The translations under genes were made by a program, and so were the position numbers. 64,000 bases of DNA. It comes from an uncultured Candidatus Saccharibacteria bacterium. Lineage in GTDB: Bacteria; Patescibacteriota; Minisyncoccia; Phycocordibacterales; PALSA-1337. The stretch spans positions 23,613-87,612 of the forward strand of contig CAZLQL010000002.1 in assembly GCA_964561875.1 (NCBI GenBank), written 5' to 3'. Under the pieces are notes generated by a model, which did no database searches, was not told the origin of the DNA, and saw only the letters and a list, made by a program, of their open reading frames with translations. Positions within the stretch are counted from its first letter, which is position 1. Each line of letters starts with the position of its first letter. Below are positions 13,833 through 45,701 of this stretch, piece by piece.

Positions 13833-13861
13833 ATCTATTTAATAAAAATTATTTTAATAAA

Positions 13862-13898
13862 AAAACAACCGCTGGACGAACCATGCGGTGTTTTGTTA
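13862..13898. terminator. hairpin plus T/A tracts between rplE and the antisense lipoprotein gene (bidirectional terminator); member of a two-copy hairpin family
   Basis: aaaaacaaccgctggacgaaccatgcggtgttttgtt. The reverse complement (aacaccgcatggttcgtccagcggttg) matches 32461-32490 at 24 of 27 positions. Confidence 0.5.
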
Positions 13899-13916
13899 AA
13901 TTTCTTCCTTAACCTC

Positions 13917-14282
13917 TCACTTTTCCTTGATAAAGTAGGTGTAGGTGGAGATACCGAATGGATTGCTTTTCAATCCAATCTGCTCCGCCTCGATTTCTGA
14001 TCCGATTACCTGTGGTTTTGCACTTAGTGCTGACCACAGACTTTCGCGGGAATGGTTATTTAGGTCCTTGAAAACCACATTGTATAGCCCGCTCCTCACT
14101 TGGACGTTGGTAATAACCACTCCAGTAACAGTAATTGGTACGATATTTACCTTCGAACTATCAATTCCTCCACTGCTGATGAAATCAGTTTGGATCTTTT
14201 CATGCTCGGACCAGTCGCGCTTGCAACCAGTAGAGAAGAAAAGTGTTCCGACAAATACAGACAACAAGAAGAACATTTTCAT
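13917..14282 (-). CDS. lipoprotein (hypothetical), inserted antisense within the spc ribosomal operon
   Basis: Signal peptide with lipobox MKMFFLLSVFVGTLFFSTGC. GC content visibly above the flanking r-protein genes. It sits in a 640-bp gap between rplE and rpsN on the opposite strand. Confidence 0.55.
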   Translation of the reverse strand: MKMFFLLSVFVGTLFFSTGCKRDWSEHEKIQTDFISSGGIDSSKVNIVPITVTGVVITNVQVRSGLYNVVFKDLNNHSRESLWSALSAKPQVIGSEIEAEQIGLKSNPFGISTYTYFIKEK

Positions 14283-14475
14283 ACGCCCATAAGATATCAT
14301 GCATATATTAACAAGTCAATAGATATTAACTTGCCTTATTTGAGCCACTCTGCTAGTATATTGAGACGTTCGAAATAAGTATACAGGCCCTAAAAAGCAT
14401 AGTGATTGGAAGCCCATACCGCAAGGTCAAGCTAACCAATCCTCGTTTGTTTATAAAATTGTTTATAAAATAAAA

Positions 14476-28980: not shown

Positions 28981-29445
28981 CTATCCTAATATGTGACGTT
29001 CGATATCGAGCCAGCTTTCGACTCGAGTGGTGCTTGAGAGCTCCGCTTGCCATTTTTCAGCATCTTCCTGATTCGCTTGGAAAAGTAATCGATGGGTAAT
29101 AAAAGGCATATGACTCATGACTTCCGGTCGGTCGTCAATGAAATGAGTGATTCCAAGACGATGACAGATCGGAGCTTTGTCACGACGCTCTGCGCAGAAA
29201 TGGAGGTGGTCTGTGGCGATTCCGACAGACTGGAGAAATCGAGTCGAGCGTAGCCAAGCCTCAGCTCTGACTTGTTGTTCAGGAGTTACTCGTGAGATGA
29301 TATGCACCCTCTCACCGAATTTCTCTGATACAAGCCTTCGAATGACTCGATCTGCATCTGGGAGTAGAACTTGCATACCGTTTACACGGTGCACAATGGT
29401 TCTTCCCAGATCGATACCAAGAGCATTTTCAGTTTTTATTTCCAT
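28981..29445 (-). CDS. HAD-superfamily-like small protein (degenerate motif I), GC-rich
   Basis: GIDLGRTIV ... HFIDDRPE resembles HAD motifs I and IV, but the second Asp is replaced. Overlaps the upstream gene by 17 bp. Confidence 0.4.
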   Translation of the reverse strand: MEIKTENALGIDLGRTIVHRVNGMQVLLPDADRVIRRLVSEKFGERVHIISRVTPEQQVRAEAWLRSTRFLQSVGIATDHLHFCAERRDKAPICHRLGITHFIDDRPEVMSHMPFITHRLLFQANQEDAEKWQAELSSTTRVESWLDIERHILG

Positions 29446-30313
29446 ACTTTTTTATCCAAGTTCTGATTTCTGGCAGGTGATGCAGGTGGGTGACAAGTGT
29501 GCAGTAAGGATCGTGAGTTATTTTTCGAATGAGTACAGGGTCAAATTCCTCGATCGTTTCTCCTACGTGCAGGAAGCACAATCCAAGTTGTTTCGATAGA
29601 CCGAGCGGGGCTATCAGGTCCCAAGGTGTCTCGAAGTGTGGTCTAACAATCACTGCTCCAACTTCACCCTTCCAGACCTTGGCAAATACCGCTCCGATAC
29701 TTCCAGCAGCTACCTCAGCGTTCTTGAAGAGACCGCTATCAGTTAGGTCTACCATTCTCTGGACAATCTCTGGGTATGCAGTAGGTAGATCCTTGAGAAC
29801 AACATATTGTTTCTTGAGTGGTCGCTTTATATCCGGCTTGAGTAAAAGTCTCTTACCGAAACGAAGTCGAGTCCCCACATCTCTAGTTCCTTTAGCGAAA
29901 CCATAGATTTCTTCGGTATTGATATCTCCAATGTAAGTTGCAATCACTTTGCCATCACAGACGAGGCCCAACATAGTGGTAACTCCTTGCGAGGTATTGA
30001 GTGCGTAGGATTTGGTTCCATCGACCGGGTCGACAGTAAACCAGATATCGTGTTTGCTGTCAGTGCAAGGAATATCCAATTCCTTTTCCTCAGCAATGAT
30101 ACCGAAAGTAGGGAAGCGTTTTCGAAGTTCCCGGATATACATCTGTTGAGCTTTGAGATCACCACTGGTGACCACATCCTCTTTGATGCCATCGTAGGCC
30201 CTCTTGTCGTGGATAACTGTTTTGTGCGATTCGGTACGGATGATAGCGATCGCTTTTCTGACGATGGCGATCATATCATTCCGAATTCGTCTCATATTTG
30301 GTATATTTTTCAT
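29429..30313 (-). CDS. inositol monophosphatase / CysQ family phosphatase, GC-rich
   Basis: WFTVDPVDGTKSY (DPxDGT) plus EE and WD motifs; 294 aa. Confidence 0.75.
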   Translation of the reverse strand: MKNIPNMRRIRNDMIAIVRKAIAIIRTESHKTVIHDKRAYDGIKEDVVTSGDLKAQQMYIRELRKRFPTFGIIAEEKELDIPCTDSKHDIWFTVDPVDGTKSYALNTSQGVTTMLGLVCDGKVIATYIGDINTEEIYGFAKGTRDVGTRLRFGKRLLLKPDIKRPLKKQYVVLKDLPTAYPEIVQRMVDLTDSGLFKNAEVAAGSIGAVFAKVWKGEVGAVIVRPHFETPWDLIAPLGLSKQLGLCFLHVGETIEEFDPVLIRKITHDPYCTLVTHLHHLPEIRTWIKKYGNKN

Positions 30314-32019: not shown

Positions 32020-32202
32020 ATTAATAGCTTCCGGTACAGTAGCTATTGACATATAGATTTTACTATGATATATCCATAAAGTAAGGTAAGTTCTTTGAAA
32101 GGTGTGTAGTTGAGTACGGAATAAGGGAAATAATTGACTTGCTGGCAATCGCTATGCGGATTAAATTCCTTTACTGTACTCAATACAAGAGAGAAACACA
32201 TC

Positions 32203-32436
32203 ATGAAAAAATTCGAAAAAAAATTGAAGGACGCCCTTAAGAAAATTGAGGGCAAGTCAGTCAGTCTTAGTGGCTCGAGCAACTGCATTCGCATTGTGCT
32301 CAAAGGTGGCAAAGAATACTGGGGAACGGTGAAAGAAGTCTGCAGTGACTCGTTCACGGTCTCGGTCTCGTATACGGGTGGCGGTCGTGAAAACATCGTC
32401 GTGCGTATGAGGGAAGTTGCTTCTTTCAGCGAGTGA
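32203..32436 (+). CDS. small GC-rich hypothetical protein (77 aa)
   Basis: MKKFEKKLKD... reads as a coherent ORF. GC is much higher than the flanks. It is followed by a hairpin terminator. The antisense ORF 32043-32462 is judged spurious. Confidence 0.4.
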   Translation: MKKFEKKLKDALKKIEGKSVSLSGSSNCIRIVLKGGKEYWGTVKEVCSDSFTVSVSYTGGGRENIVVRMREVASFSE

Positions 32437-32460: not shown

Positions 32461-32495
32461 ACACCGCATGGTTAGCCCAGCGGTGTTTACTTTTG
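32461..32495 (+). terminator. hairpin terminator, second copy of the hairpin family seen at 13866-13892
   Basis: acaccgcatggttagcccagcggtgt followed by ttacttttgc. Confidence 0.5.
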
Positions 32496-32647
32496 CTTAA
32501 ATATTCAAGTCTTTTGATATAATTTACTTTTATAGAATAGTTTTAAATAATGGCGAGAAAAACGTTGTAGTGGAAGACACTCTGGTGAATATCAAGGGTG
32601 CTTATACAGACATTTTACGACTTTCAACTCCCCAAATAGCTTCATCA

Positions 32648-32690
32648 GTCAAAACAAAACCACTCTTGCGAGTGGTCTGTTTTGTCTGTG
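32648..32690. repeat. hairpin repeat family, copy 2
   Basis: gtcaaaacaaaaccactcttgcgagtggtctgttttg forms a ~15-bp stem; related to 31196-31221. Confidence 0.55.
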
Positions 32691-35637: not shown

Positions 35638-35711
35638 AAAATACACTGCGAATTCATATTTACAGAGAGATTAGAATATGTAGATAAAGAAGGTTGTCGA
35701 AGTAATAAAAA

Positions 35712-35738
35712 ACACCAGCAAAAGCTGGTATTTTTTTA
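35712..35738 (+). terminator. rho-independent terminator (accagcaaaagctggt plus T7)
   Basis: Perfect 6-bp stem, 4-nt loop and a T tract after the three-gene module. Confidence 0.7.
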
Positions 35739-35871
35739 TTACTGTGGAGATAGTCACGCAAAGTTGGAACCAACTCTATTCTTGGTTTTTTGAATCGTCT
35801 GGGCGATTATAGAAAGTAGGGAACATTGCGTATAAAAGAGAACTCCACAATAAGCAGAGCCTCTTGCGGAG

Positions 35872-36336
35872 TTATTGACCAAGATTTTTGATTCGTTCCA
35901 AGGTTTCGCGTCGTTCAATAGCTTGTCTCGTGATTTTCTGAACTACGTAAACGCATTTCCTCAGGTCAGCTTCACCCTCAGGGGTCGAACAAAGCCTCCG
36001 ATGAAGAACGTCTTTGGGAATTAGAAACGTTATATATTCCGCTAGGTCAGAAAGTGTTGCGTCTGATAAATTACGCAGCTCTTCCACCGTAAACCCTACA
36101 TCGCAGAATTCTTGCGAATCTTTTGCGACTTGAACCAGAAGCTCTTGATAGAGCTCCATTAGGTTTTCCTTCTGCCATGTTTCTAACTGATCCCAATCAT
36201 CAATATTGTCTCGATAGAGAGCAGTGACATCAGGAAGGAGGGTTGGAATGGACGCGATCTTTTTGAGCCCTATAAGCCAAGCCCTAACTTCTTCTTTGGT
36301 TTGCATGTTTAAAACCTTTGGTTGGATTTTTACCAA
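35872..36336 (-). CDS. GC-rich hypothetical protein adjacent to the ssrA 3' end
   Basis: 154-aa ORF with much higher GC than the genome background. Confidence 0.4.
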   Translation of the reverse strand: MVKIQPKVLNMQTKEEVRAWLIGLKKIASIPTLLPDVTALYRDNIDDWDQLETWQKENLMELYQELLVQVAKDSQEFCDVGFTVEELRNLSDATLSDLAEYITFLIPKDVLHRRLCSTPEGEADLRKCVYVVQKITRQAIERRETLERIKNLGQ

Positions 36337-36389
36337 AAAAAGCTGCTATTAAATATGATATCATATCTAGTAATAAATGTCAAATCTGT

Positions 36390-39294: not shown

Positions 39295-39368
39295 GCGCGT
39301 GTAGCTCAGTTGGTTAGAGCATCGAGCTTATACCTCGAGGGTCCCTGGTTCGAGTCCAGGCACGCGCA
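39295..39368 (+). tRNA. tRNA-Ile with anticodon UAU
   Basis: Cloverleaf with acceptor GCGCGTG/CACGCGC, anticodon stem TCGAG/CTCGA, loop CTTATAC and T-loop TTCGAGT. Confidence 0.85.
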
Positions 39369-39395
39369 CCGAGCGTAGTATATAAAAAAGAAAAA

Positions 39396-43641: not shown

Positions 43642-43731
43642 GGAACCGTGGTGGAGTGGTTTAACATACCTCTTTGCTAAAGAGGCGAGCCCTTTAAAGG
43701 CTCCGAGGGTTCGAATCCCTCCGGTTCCGCA
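43642..43731 (+). tRNA. tRNA-Ser (anticodon GCU), class II with a long variable arm
   Basis: Acceptor GGAACCG/CGGTTCC, anticodon loop TTGCTAA, variable arm GAGCC-TTTAAA-GGCTC and T-arm GAGGG-TTCGAAT-CCCTC. Confidence 0.85.
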
Positions 43732-45359: not shown

Positions 45360-45701
45360 CTATTTCTCCAGAGTAATCTTCTTCTGCGCCAGAAAGATTC
45401 TACTCTTCAAACACCCAAGCAATTCTCGTTTCTTTTCGTTTGAACCCTCTTTCAGTACATACTTTGCATATCCTCGAATATCTACACTCGGTACGGCAAC
45501 TTTTTCCTTGGTTCCCAGAAAGAATTTCTGCATCTTTGAAAACTGCTCAAGATCAGCTTTGATCTTTTCCTTAACCTCGATTTCATTAAGGGTGATGTTT
45601 TCAACTAACTCCTCAAACTGTTTCAATATATCTTTCTCTTCCGTATATAAAGACTTTAATGACTGGACGATTACACAAATAATGCAGTAATTGGAGCGCA
45701 C
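45360..45701 (-). CDS. hypothetical protein, possibly a truncated gene remnant
   Basis: Lys/Glu-rich 113-aa ORF with an unclear start, next to repeat element copy B. Confidence 0.3.
   Translation of the reverse strand: MRSNYCIICVIVQSLKSLYTEEKDILKQFEELVENITLNEIEVKEKIKADLEQFSKMQKFFLGTKEKVAVPSVDIRGYAKYVLKEGSNEKKRELLGCLKSRIFLAQKKITLEK

What the first reader, a model, noticed from the sequence alone, without database searches (positions are those of the whole stretch)
13866..13892. The same terminator hairpin follows two unrelated GC-rich cassette genes (13866-13892 and 32461-32490)
The minus-strand reading of 13866-13892 (aacaccgcatggttcgtccagcggttg) and the plus-strand sequence at 32461-32490 (acaccgcatggttagcccagcggtgtt) share 24 of 27 nucleotides, including the loop. 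Each sits immediately 3' of a small GC-rich, foreign-looking ORF: the lipoprotein, and the 77-aa ORF at 32203-32436. The shared 3' module suggests a common mobile origin or a cassette-associated recombination or termination element.
Basis: seen in the sequence. Interest (0 to 1): 0.5.

Follow-up and report, generated by a model that had tools for sequence, protein, structure and literature searches.

The report
Shared portable terminator on gene cassettes
Two unrelated small, foreign-looking genes in this ultra-small (Patescibacteria) bacterium end with the same stem-loop transcription stop signal, and the same stem-loop follows other orphan genes in related bacteria, which points to a shared pool of self-contained, swappable gene cassettes.

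Summary
The hairpin at 13866-13891 (- strand) and the one at 32461-32486 (+) are 23/27 identical, not 24/27. Each lies 24-27 nt after a small GC-rich orphan ORF and is followed by a T-tract. A covariance model finds only these two copies in the 64 kb, so it is not this genome's generic terminator. The core ACCGCATGG-loop-CCAGCGGT plus a T-run also occurs in about 16 distinct contexts in other Patescibacteria contigs. It is always co-oriented with, and 7-60 nt behind, a small ORF with no Pfam or PHROG match, and the flanks are otherwise unrelated. It is absent from viral, phage and plasmid collections. At the rplE/rpsN gap, close relatives (L5 93%, 81%, 78% identical) have an empty site with no hairpin. 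More distant relatives have the same promoter and hairpin with different ORFs between them. Two pairs of near-identical genomes swap cargo with the junction at the hairpin's 5' edge. Best reading: a bulged intrinsic terminator that forms the 3' module of promoter-ORF-terminator cassettes drawn from a shared mobile gene pool, and probably also a homology patch for cargo exchange, like phage PeSLs. Termination and recombination are inferred, not shown.

The parts
13866..13891 (-). Hairpin W1: ACACCGC-A-TGG-ttcgt-CCA-GCGGTTG. It is the 3' module of the lipoprotein cassette and also folds on the + strand, so it looks bidirectional between the convergent rplE and lipoprotein genes.
   Evidence: -14.7 kcal/mol on - strand, -15.2 on + strand; 61 bits.
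13859..13865 (-). T-tract (TTTTTTT) immediately 3' of hairpin W1.
13917..14282 (-). Cargo 1: small lipoprotein (signal peptide plus lipobox FSTGC). The listed ORF runs to 14300, but that ATG overlaps the -10 box, so the start is more likely the ATG at 14282 (121 aa, near-leaderless). GC 0.43, GC3 0.49.
   Evidence: no Pfam; only 2 homologues, 92% and 68% identical.
14291..14319 (-). Cassette 1 promoter: TTGACT-17-TATCTT with TG extension. It sits back to back with the rpsN promoter (TTGCCT 14331-14336, TAGTAT 14354-14359).
   Evidence: homologous promoter in L020/L021.
13836..14330 (-). Approximate extent of the segment present in the window but absent from the empty rplE/rpsN spacers of close relatives (promoter + lipoprotein gene + hairpin + AT-rich tail). 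Edges are good to about 10 nt.
32046..32074 (+). Cassette 2 promoter: TTGACA-N14-TGATATATC. It shares CTATTGAC and ATGATAT with the cassette 1 promoter.
   Evidence: (CTATTGAC occurs only at these two promoters).
32088..32202 (+). Structured 5' leader of cassette 2. It is homologous to the leader that follows a hammerhead ribozyme in L023, where a different ORF follows, and there are compensatory changes in the long stem. It contains GCTGGC-aatc-GCTATGCGG (32141-32158), which resembles an inverted copy of the 3' hairpin.
32203..32436 (+). Cargo 2: 77-aa ORF, GC 0.47, GC3 0.58. It belongs to a conserved orphan family (13 homologues). The predicted fold is an N-terminal helix plus a five-stranded small beta-barrel, closest to Sm/LSm/Hfq.
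32461..32486 (+). Hairpin W2: ACACCGC-A-TGG-ttagc-CCA-GCGGTGT.
   Evidence: -14.7 kcal/mol; 53.1 bits.
32487..32494 (+). Interrupted T-tract (TTACTTTT) 3' of hairpin W2.

Best explanation
The two hairpins are copies of one family of bulged intrinsic (Rho-independent) terminators. The family forms the 3' module of small, self-contained expression cassettes (own sigma-70-type promoter, sometimes a structured leader, one small orphan ORF, hairpin plus U-tract) that circulate horizontally among Patescibacteria. In the transcript, the 7-bp + bulged A + 3-bp stem-loop followed by the U-tract would stop RNA polymerase. That insulates host genes from the inserted unit and the unit from host genes. At 13866-13891 it should also stop rplE transcripts coming from the other side. 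Because the same ~22-36 nt sequence sits behind many different cargos, it also gives a patch of identity at which cargos can be exchanged by recombination. The same applies to the conserved promoter or leader at the other end. Shown here: the sequence family, its distribution, its absence from empty sites, its co-orientation with cargo, and swap junctions at its edge. Inferred: termination activity, horizontal spread as the cause of sequence identity, and recombination at the hairpin.
For: Structure and context are terminator-like. Both copies fold at -14.7 kcal/mol with z about -3. A T-rich tract follows in all 23 aligned or listed copies, although its exact sequence varies. The hairpin lies 7-60 nt after a stop codon and is always on the cargo strand. 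It is not the generic terminator of this genome: only 2 copies in 64 kb and one per 8-kb locus elsewhere. It is shared across genomes: 11 of 15 GTDB-representative hits and 7 of 7 metagenome hits are Patescibacteria-type contigs with the identical core plus a T-run, while the 4 other hits are high-GC chance matches without a T-run. In most pairs of loci only about 33 nt are shared. W1 and W2 each differ from the common core (loop TTCGC) by one loop base, so they look like separate derivatives of it rather than copies of each other. The hairpin belongs to the cassette: relatives with L5 93%, 81% and 78% identical have rplE-rpsN spacers with no cassette and no hairpin, yet L011, whose L5 C-terminus is 99% identical to empty L041, carries the cassette. 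Cargo is modular. L020 and L021 are 91-98% identical around the site, but both ORFs are replaced, and one junction is at ..CCAA|CACCGC. L027 and L032 show the same pattern. W2 and L023 share the leader and the hairpin but have different ORFs. W2 and L040 share the ORF family and the hairpin but have different leaders and spacers. Cargos are orphans with GC 0.41-0.55 whatever the host GC, which ranges 0.34-0.54. Both window cassettes have their own promoters.
Against: There are no transcript data, so termination is not demonstrated. The simple terminator scan does not call either site, because the bulge breaks its ungapped-stem rule. The W2 U-tract is interrupted (UUUACUUUU). The stem is invariant in every copy found, with no compensatory changes. 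That is more than a purely structural terminator needs, although ascertainment by exact pattern explains part of it; the independently found variants (W1, W2, L011, L031, L040) also change only loop bases or the base of the stem. No vehicle was identified: there are no real hits in IMG/VR, phage or plasmid collections. A 22-36 nt homology patch is short for RecA-type recombination. The taxonomic breadth rests on record titles, at least one of which is inconsistent: L020 is labelled Saccharibacteria and its near-twin L021 is labelled Paceibacteria.
Confidence: 0.62

Rival explanations
1. An RNA element with a sequence-specific partner. In this reading the hairpin, with or without terminating, is bound by a conserved protein or pairs with the cassette's 5' leader to control mRNA stability, processing or translation. 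That would explain why the stem sequence, and not only the structure, is invariant.
For: Stems are invariant while loops, spacers and T-tracts drift. In W2 and L023 the 5' leader carries GCTGGC..GC(C/T)ATGCG, an inverted look-alike of the 3' hairpin. The pattern GCTGG-N4-10-YYATGCG occurs nowhere else in about 440 kb of searched strands apart from the hairpins themselves, so 5'-3' pairing is possible. Some copies are preceded by a covarying three-hairpin 3' element. One cargo has a predicted Sm/Hfq-like fold, and Hfq-type proteins bind terminator U-tails (the link is my inference from general knowledge).
Against: W1 and most other copies have no leader look-alike and no three-hairpin element. 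The leader pattern was chosen post hoc, and about 0.7 chance hits are expected by my estimate. The Sm-like cargo is present in only 2 of about 16 contexts. Stem invariance is partly an ascertainment effect and could also reflect recent transfer.
Confidence: 0.12
2. A folded-DNA site-specific recombination site (attC-like, or a hairpin recognised by a tyrosine, serine or HUH recombinase) that delimits cassettes and mediates their insertion and excision.
For: Cargo-swap junctions coincide with the hairpin's 5' edge in two genome pairs. The single bulged base gives the hairpin strand polarity, as extrahelical bases do in attC (general knowledge). A large serine recombinase gene lies next to hairpin cassettes in L019/L026 and L024. 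The same rplE/rpsN site is occupied in two clades separated by empty-site clades.
Against: The element is only 26 nt, against 57-141 nt for attC. There are no RYYYAAC/GTTRRRY cores and no cassette arrays (one copy per locus). No integrase or transposase was found among the window ORFs examined. No target-site duplication or terminal repeat was seen at the W1 junctions. An obligatory T-tract on the cargo strand is what a terminator needs, not what a recombination site needs. Cassettes carry their own promoters, unlike integron cassettes.
Confidence: 0.07
3. An ordinary terminator whose similarity in different genomes is convergent or vertically inherited. On this reading there is nothing mobile and nothing cassette-specific.
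For: It looks like a terminator. GC-rich CCGC/GCGG stems are common in terminators: the neighbouring unit-A terminators in L020 and L021 are CCGCACG-type.
Against: An identical 22-23-mer, including the bulge and mostly the loop, occurs in non-homologous loci of genomes with GC from 0.34 to 0.54. About 1 chance hit is expected for the 20 specified bases in 596 Gb (my estimate), and the 4 non-Patescibacteria hits lack a T-run. The hairpin is absent from empty orthologous sites. Other terminators in the window have unrelated stems.
Confidence: 0.06
4. A selfish palindromic repeat of the REP/REPIN or IS200/IS605-PATE type, spread by a Y1 (HUH) transposase, that merely tends to land behind genes.
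For: It is a short imperfect palindrome with an extrahelical base, lies in intergenic 3' positions and has a conserved sequence, which are features of REPs and of IS200/IS605 end hairpins (general knowledge).
Against: Copy number is very low: 2 in 64 kb and 1 per 8-kb locus. There are no tandem or inverted doublets. The hairpin is always tied to an orphan ORF and its promoter and is missing, together with that ORF, at empty sites. No transposase-like ORF turned up among those scanned. The same sequence is shared between genomes, whereas REPs are genome-specific (general knowledge).
Confidence: 0.04

Closest known systems
Intrinsic (Rho-independent) transcription terminators
   Same: GC-rich stem-loop followed by a U-tract, a few tens of nt after a stop codon and co-oriented with the gene. 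W1 has an A-tract on one side and a T-tract on the other, like bidirectional terminators between convergent genes.
   Different: Ordinary terminators conserve structure rather than sequence, and are not shared as identical 22-mers between non-homologous loci of different genera or classes. This one has an invariant bulged A and an invariant stem.
PeSLs (promoter-early stem-loops), the mobile regulatory cassettes of T4-type phages (PMC2839356, PMC4122927)
   Same: Conserved regulatory motifs (a strong sigma-70-like promoter plus a terminator stem-loop) flank small ORFan genes in variable regions. Closely related genomes differ by ORF replacements whose junctions lie in these motifs.
   Different: PeSLs are composite promoter+stem-loop units present about 50 times per phage genome. 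Here the promoter and the hairpin sit at opposite ends of a cassette, copies are few (2 per 64 kb), the hosts are cellular Patescibacteria genomes, and the hairpin is shared between distant genomes. No mini-circles have been shown.
Prophage 'morons' (general knowledge)
   Same: An autonomous unit of promoter + one gene + factor-independent terminator, with base composition unlike its surroundings, inserted between resident genes.
   Different: These units are not in a prophage: one sits inside the ribosomal-protein gene cluster. There were no PHROG hits and no viral-contig hits. Morons are not known to share one terminator sequence.
Minimal mobile elements (MMEs) of naturally competent bacteria (general knowledge)
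   Same: A fixed chromosomal slot between conserved genes (rplE and rpsN) holds different cargo, or none, in related strains. This fits exchange by homologous recombination in conserved flanks, and L011 is a mosaic. Type IV pilus genes are present.
   Different: MMEs are defined by the flanking core genes only. Here the cargo also brings a conserved promoter and a conserved terminator that recur at unrelated loci.
Integron attC sites / cassette arrays
   Same: An imperfect hairpin with an extrahelical base at the 3' end of each small, often orphan, cassette ORF.
   Different: The length, core sites, arrays and integrase expected for attC are all missing, a T-tract is present, and the cassettes have their own promoters (see membership test).

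Membership tests
Intrinsic terminator | Stable GC-rich stem-loop in the transcript | tested here: met
   -14.7 kcal/mol for both copies, z -3.3 and -2.7 against shuffles.
Intrinsic terminator | U-rich tract directly 3' of the stem | tested here: met
   TTTTTTT at W1 and TTTACTTTT at W2. The tract is T-rich in every other copy, although its sequence varies.
Intrinsic terminator | Position just downstream of a stop codon, on the gene's strand | tested here: met
   Gaps of 7-60 nt, always co-oriented with the upstream ORF.
Intrinsic terminator | Called by a consensus terminator scan | tested here: inconclusive
   Neither site is called. The scan needs an ungapped stem with a 3-8 nt loop, and the bulged A breaks that rule.
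Intrinsic terminator | RNA 3' ends or termination at the U-tract | not testable with these tools
   No transcript data are available.
PeSL-type mobile regulatory cassette | Conserved regulatory motif flanking ORFans, with ORF replacements between close relatives whose junctions lie in the motif | tested here: met
   L020 vs L021, L027 vs L032, W2 vs L023.
PeSL-type mobile regulatory cassette | Composite promoter + stem-loop within one short motif | tested here: not met
   The promoter is at the 5' end and the hairpin at the 3' end of each cassette. A promoter-like TGATATAAT lies about 29 nt after W2, and TTGAAAT follows some other copies, but this is not a fixed composite.
PeSL-type mobile regulatory cassette | Tens of copies per genome, clustered in hyperplastic regions of T4-type phages | tested here: not met
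   2 copies in 64 kb of a cellular genome; no viral-contig hits.
Integron attC | 57-141 nt imperfect palindrome with R''/L''/L'/R' and RYYYAAC...GTTRRRY cores | tested here: not met
   The hairpin is 26 nt. No GTTRRRY follows it: the sequences are GTTTACT and GTTGTTT.
Integron attC | Arrays of promoterless cassettes next to intI/attI | tested here: not met
   Single copies only; cassettes have their own promoters; no integrase among the ORFs scanned.
REP/REPIN or IS200/IS605-PATE | Many copies per genome, often as inverted doublets | tested here: not met
   2 copies in 64 kb and no doublets. The whole genome was not available.
REP/REPIN or IS200/IS605-PATE | Cognate Y1/HUH transposase (RAYT/TnpA) | tested here: inconclusive
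   None among the roughly 27 window ORFs scanned with Pfam. Not all ORFs were scanned, and the rest of the genome was not examined.
Prophage moron | Promoter + gene + terminator unit with atypical composition | tested here: met
Prophage moron | Located in a prophage or phage genome | tested here: not met
   W1 lies between rplE and rpsN. No PHROG hits and no viral or phage hits.
Rfam families | Match to any curated RNA family | tested here: not met
   Nothing relevant at either site, even at E<=10.

The most novel reading that the evidence does not exclude
Patescibacteria share a previously undescribed system of portable 'expression slots'. These are cassettes bounded by conserved RNA/DNA modules: a consensus promoter or a hammerhead ribozyme plus a structured leader at the 5' end, and an optional three-hairpin element plus the invariant bulged hairpin-terminator at the 3' end. 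The boundary modules would be the actual sites of cargo exchange, by short-homology or hairpin-specific recombination. Orphan genes would then be shuffled between loci and between distant lineages. This would be a cellular, cross-lineage counterpart of phage PeSLs or of integron cassettes, able to plant genes even inside the ribosomal-protein cluster.
Probability: 0.3. Interest if true: 0.7.

Novelty: new variant of a known kind. Interest (0 to 1): 0.5.

Why it matters
Patescibacteria (the candidate phyla radiation, CPR) have tiny genomes full of orphan genes, and how they gain and exchange genes is poorly understood. A terminator hairpin with an invariant sequence behind unrelated orphan genes in many such genomes is a concrete, searchable marker of a shared accessory gene pool. 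Together with the conserved promoter or leader, it defines the cassette boundaries. It gives a handle for cataloguing strain-variable genes, for example lipoproteins and small secreted or membrane proteins that may matter for the episymbiotic lifestyle. It can also be used to test whether regulatory motifs drive modular gene shuffling in cellular genomes, as PeSLs do in T4-type phages. Practically, it offers a native, compact promoter/terminator pair for genetic tools in these organisms. If it is only a terminator that hitch-hikes with transferred genes, the finding is a useful annotation but not a new mechanism.

Tried and rejected
a 27-mer search with up to 3 mismatches found only the query itself, so 24/27 is wrong and 23/27 is right.
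- **Known RNA families:** Rfam gave nothing at either site, at gathering thresholds or at E<=10.
- **tRNA origin:** I considered a tRNA T-arm or minihelix origin. The loop is 5 nt rather than 7, and ARAGORN finds no tRNA there. Rejected.
- **attC:** the core sites and the length do not fit.
- **Phage or plasmid origin:** 0 hits in IMG/VR for the hairpin, the leader and the three-hairpin element. A relaxed hairpin pattern gave 3 chance hits in 64-66% GC contigs without a T-run. INPHARED phages and PLSDB plasmids gave only partial chance matches. Cargo proteins had no PHROG hits.
- **More copies in the window:** the third-best model hit, at 35702-35741, is an unrelated CCAGC/GCTGG terminator.
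- **Hammerhead ribozyme upstream of ORF77, as in L023:** absent. The window has a promoter at that position instead.
- **Link between the window's GC-rich inositol-monophosphatase-like gene and the one next to the ORF77 homologue in L013:** only 27% identity over 62 aa, so no real link.
- **Target-site duplications or terminal inverted repeats at the W1 junctions:** none convincing.
- **Taxonomic names for host contigs via cluster look-up:** none returned.
- **DNA-uptake-sequence idea:** rejected, because uptake sequences are highly abundant in a genome and this motif is rare.

Full report
**1. The observation**

The minus strand of 13866-13892 reads aacaccgcatggttcgtccagcggttg, and the plus strand from 32461 reads acaccgcatggttagcccagcggtgtt. 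In register they differ at four positions: two in the loop and two at the base of the 3' arm. This is why a search with up to 3 mismatches returned only the query (rows W1 and W2).

Both fold as ACACCGC / bulged A / TGG / 5-nt loop / CCA / GCGGTGT-type hairpins of -14.7 kcal/mol (z -3.3 and -2.7). They are followed by TTTTTTT and TTTACTTTT respectively. The first also folds on the plus strand (-15.2 kcal/mol) with TTTTGTT after it.

Each begins 24-27 nt after a small ORF:
- a lipoprotein with signal peptide and lipobox (13917-14282/14300, minus strand);
- a 77-aa ORF (32203-32436).

These ORFs have GC 0.43 and 0.47 and GC3 0.49 and 0.58. The window has GC 0.34, and the neighbouring rplE has GC3 0.21. 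Neither ORF has a Pfam family.

**2. Not chance, and not the genome's generic terminator**

I built a covariance model from 19 copies and ran it with filters off. It scores the two sites at 61.0 and 53.1 bits. The next hits, at 21.4 bits or less, share only the A-tract, a few stem bases and the T-tract, and have different stems. So the window holds exactly two copies.

**3. Genomic setting**

The window is from a Patescibacteria genome of the Paceibacterota type, judging by its closest L5 homologues.

Hairpin W1 lies inside the ribosomal-protein cluster. The order is rpsC-rplP-rpmC-rpsQ-rplN-rplX-rplE, then the lipoprotein gene on the opposite strand, then rpsN-rpsH-rplF-rplR-rpsE. The lipoprotein gene has its own promoter, TTGACT-17-TATCTT with a TG extension, at 14319-14291. 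This promoter sits back to back with the rpsN promoter.

Hairpin W2 lies in a variable stretch (about 28.9-36.3 kb) next to the tmRNA gene. That stretch holds GC-rich genes, a TrmB-type regulator, a GHKL-ATPase (HATPase_c_3) and a SocA/Panacea antitoxin-domain gene. ORF77 also has its own promoter, TTGACA-N14-TGATATATC at 32046-32074, and a 115-nt leader.

The 8-mer CTATTGAC occurs only twice in the window, at these two promoters. The pattern ATTGAC-N-ATGATAT likewise matches only these two. The 8-mer was chosen after I saw the promoters, so I treat this as suggestive only.

**4. The same hairpin elsewhere**

I scanned one genome per GTDB species for CACCGCATGGTNNGNCCAGCGGT and got 15 hits.
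- Eleven are Patescibacteria MAGs, titled Saccharibacteria, Taylorbacteria, Harrisonbacteria, Paceibacteria or Patescibacteria. All carry the identical CACCGCATGGTTCGCCCAGCGGT followed by a T-run.
- The other four lie in contigs of 59-66% GC, have other loops and have no T-run, so they are the chance background.

The metagenome scan gave seven more, all with a T-run. A further copy, with loop TCCGC, follows an ORF77 homologue in a 53% GC soil contig.

After merging near-duplicates there are about 16 distinct contexts. Between most of them only about 33 nt are alignable. There is one copy per 8-kb locus.

W1 and W2 each differ from this common core by a single loop base. They therefore look like two separate derivatives of it rather than copies of one another.

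Caveat: the taxonomic titles are not fully reliable. L020 ('Saccharibacteria') and L021 ('Paceibacteria') are 92-97% identical. Host GC nevertheless spans 0.34-0.54.

**5. What precedes the hairpin**

In every context the hairpin is co-oriented with, and 7-60 nt behind, a small ORF of 43-229 aa. These ORFs are unrelated to each other, apart from orthologues. They have no Pfam and no PHROG hit. Their GC is 0.41-0.55 regardless of host GC. Most are preceded by a near-consensus sigma-70-type promoter.

The ORF77 family is a real, conserved gene family: 13 homologues with 22 invariant columns.

**6. The hairpin belongs to the cassette, not to the resident locus**

Relatives with L5 93% (L041-L044), 81% (L045-L048) and 78% (L049) identical have rplE followed directly by a spacer of about 190-200 nt. 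That spacer carries the rpsN promoter and a conserved GATTGGAAGC...GCTAACCAATCC leader hairpin. It has no cassette and no CACCGC hairpin.

L011 has an L5 C-terminus 99% identical to that of empty L041. Yet it carries the lipoprotein cassette (68% aa identity to the window's) and a window-like rpsN leader, so it is a mosaic.

The segment present only in filled sites corresponds to about 13836-14330 in the window. I found no convincing target-site duplication or terminal repeat at its ends.

**7. Cargo is swapped between fixed ends**

More distant relatives (L020 and L021, L5 73%) have the same slot: the homologous outward-facing promoter beside the rpsN promoter, and the same hairpin beside rplE. 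Here rplE keeps its own separate terminator. Between these ends lie two transcription units with entirely different ORFs.

L020 and L021 are 91-98% identical in the promoter, leader, inter-unit and downstream blocks. Both ORFs are replaced by unrelated sequence with sharp edges. The 3' edge of the second swap is ..CCAA|CACCGC, the 5' foot of the hairpin. L027 and L032 repeat the pattern next to pilT.

Other combinations also occur:
- W2 and L023 share a roughly 115-nt leader, with compensatory changes in a long stem, and share the hairpin. They enclose different ORFs of 77 and about 139-166 aa.
- W2 and L040 share the ORF family and the hairpin, but not the leader or the stop-to-hairpin spacer.
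- L013, whose ORF is 87% identical to ORF77, has different flanks and a different terminator.

So promoter or leader, ORF and terminator behave as separable modules.

**8. Mechanism**

The best-supported reading has three parts.

(a) The hairpin plus U-tract is an intrinsic terminator. This is inferred from four things: its structure, its position, its strict co-orientation with cargo, and a T-tract that stays T-rich while its sequence drifts.

(b) It is the 3' module of autonomous promoter-ORF-terminator cassettes that spread horizontally. This is inferred from three things: the identical sequence in non-homologous loci of diverse genomes, its absence from empty sites, and the foreign, uniform composition of the cargo.

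(c) The conserved end modules serve as the homology at which cargo is exchanged. This is inferred from junction positions only.

At W1 the hairpin probably also terminates rplE transcripts. This is tolerable because rpsN has its own promoter in both empty and filled alleles.

The invariance of the stem leaves room for a sequence-specific partner, either a protein or pairing with the leader look-alike GCTGGC..GCYATGCG found in W2 and L023. I rank that as the main rival.

An attC-like or other site-specific recombination site, a REP/PATE-type selfish repeat, and a plain convergent terminator are each contradicted by tested features (see the membership table).

**9. Comparison with known systems**

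Functionally the closest analogue is the PeSL of T4-type phages. PeSLs are conserved promoter/stem-loop motifs that flank ORFans and mediate modular shuffling between close relatives (PMC2839356, PMC4122927). This case is not a member of that family: it is not a composite motif, not high-copy and not in a phage.

The cassettes are also moron-like, but they are not in a prophage. The rplE/rpsN slot behaves like a minimal mobile element. Rfam 15 has no matching family, and a literature search turned up no description of it.

I class it as a new variant of a known kind: a sequence-conserved terminator module shared between lineages and attached to mobile orphan-gene cassettes.

**10. Limits**

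- No transcript data were available.
- Only 64 kb of the source genome was examined.
- Copies were found by exact pattern, which hides stem variants.
- Public scans were capped, so the census is a sample.
- The vehicle of transfer is unknown. There were no viral or plasmid hits, although a large serine recombinase sits beside some copies.

Noticed in passing
L023:6772-6826 (+): A type III hammerhead ribozyme (48.8 bits, just above the Rfam gathering score) sits directly upstream of the conserved cassette leader in a Saccharibacteria-labelled contig. It lies between two same-strand small ORFs, in the position where the window's cassette 2 has a promoter. It would cut the cassette mRNA free of the upstream transcript.
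   Followed up: partly
L023:7339-7394, L024:448-503, L029:3480-3535, L018:1263-1324: A roughly 55-nt element of three small hairpins (AGUGG/CCACU, CGGU-GAAGUA-ACCG, UAGC-GCAA-GCUA) precedes the terminator hairpin in four loci. Four pairs show compensatory changes. No Rfam family matches. It is absent from the window.
   Followed up: partly
window 32141-32158 (+) and L023:6871-6889 (+): The 5' leader contains GCTGGC-loop-GC(C/T)ATGCG, an inverted look-alike of the 3' hairpin with the bulge on the opposite arm. In about 440 kb of searched strands the pattern occurs only here and at the hairpins themselves. It could allow 5'-3' pairing of the mRNA, or mark inverted repeats around the cargo.
   Followed up: partly
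window 32203-32436 (+): The 77-aa cargo protein is predicted (pLDDT 85.7) to be an N-terminal helix plus a five-stranded small beta-barrel. The best PDB matches are Sm/LSm/Hfq proteins (E 2e-3 to 2e-2, TM 0.5-0.65). This may be an RNA-binding protein in a lineage where Hfq is not usually annotated.
   Followed up: partly
window 14331-14475 (+); L041:3062-3253: rpsN has its own promoter (TTGCCT-17-TAGTAT) and a conserved leader hairpin, GATTGGAAGC...GCTAACCAATCC, in all relatives whether the site is empty or filled. This is a candidate ribosomal-protein autoregulatory leader that splits the spc cluster after rplE in this clade.
   Followed up: no
window 39295-39370 (+): tRNA-Ile with anticodon UAU (ARAGORN), next to ftsH. 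This is an unusual way for a bacterium to read AUA, since most use a lysidine-modified CAU tRNA.
   Followed up: no
window 45360-45701 (-): A 113-aa ORF is about 30% identical to the C-terminal 100 residues of the large serine recombinase that sits next to hairpin cassettes in L019, L024 and L026. It is probably a recombinase remnant, about 1.6 kb from tRNA-Ser (43642-43730).
   Followed up: partly
window 32515-32690 (+): A perfect extended -10 box (TGATATAAT, 32515-32523) lies 29 nt after hairpin W2, and a bidirectional terminator (32657-32678 plus T-run) lies about 140 nt further on. Together they outline a possible small RNA or tiny-ORF transcript.
   Followed up: no
L014:4880-5380; L038:3880-4330; L013:200-310: ORF77 homologues in higher-GC contigs sit in same-strand arrays of small orphan ORFs. 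The arrays are separated by repeated intergenic elements, for example CACTTCAGAGCAGTTTTCGGTGAAGACTTTTCTGAAGTG in L014 and AACAACTTCCTCCRCTTTATTGGGTTC in L038. These are a different set of conserved regulatory repeats flanking cassettes.
   Followed up: no
L037:1-140: An ORF77 homologue lies directly beside the 3' end of a tRNA gene and next to umuD/umuC-like genes (Peptidase_S24, IMS). This is a typical island insertion point.
   Followed up: no
window 28981-30313 (-): The most GC-rich kilobase of the window (0.47) holds an inositol-monophosphatase-family gene and an overlapping 154-aa orphan. They look like another foreign insertion, but no CACCGC hairpin is present.
   Followed up: partly
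window 36355-36383 (-) and 35872-36336 (-): A third promoter of the TTGACA-N-TGATATCAT type drives a 154-aa orphan ORF right after the tmRNA gene. It ends at an unrelated bidirectional terminator (35702-35741). This looks like a further cassette-like unit with a different terminator.
   Followed up: partly
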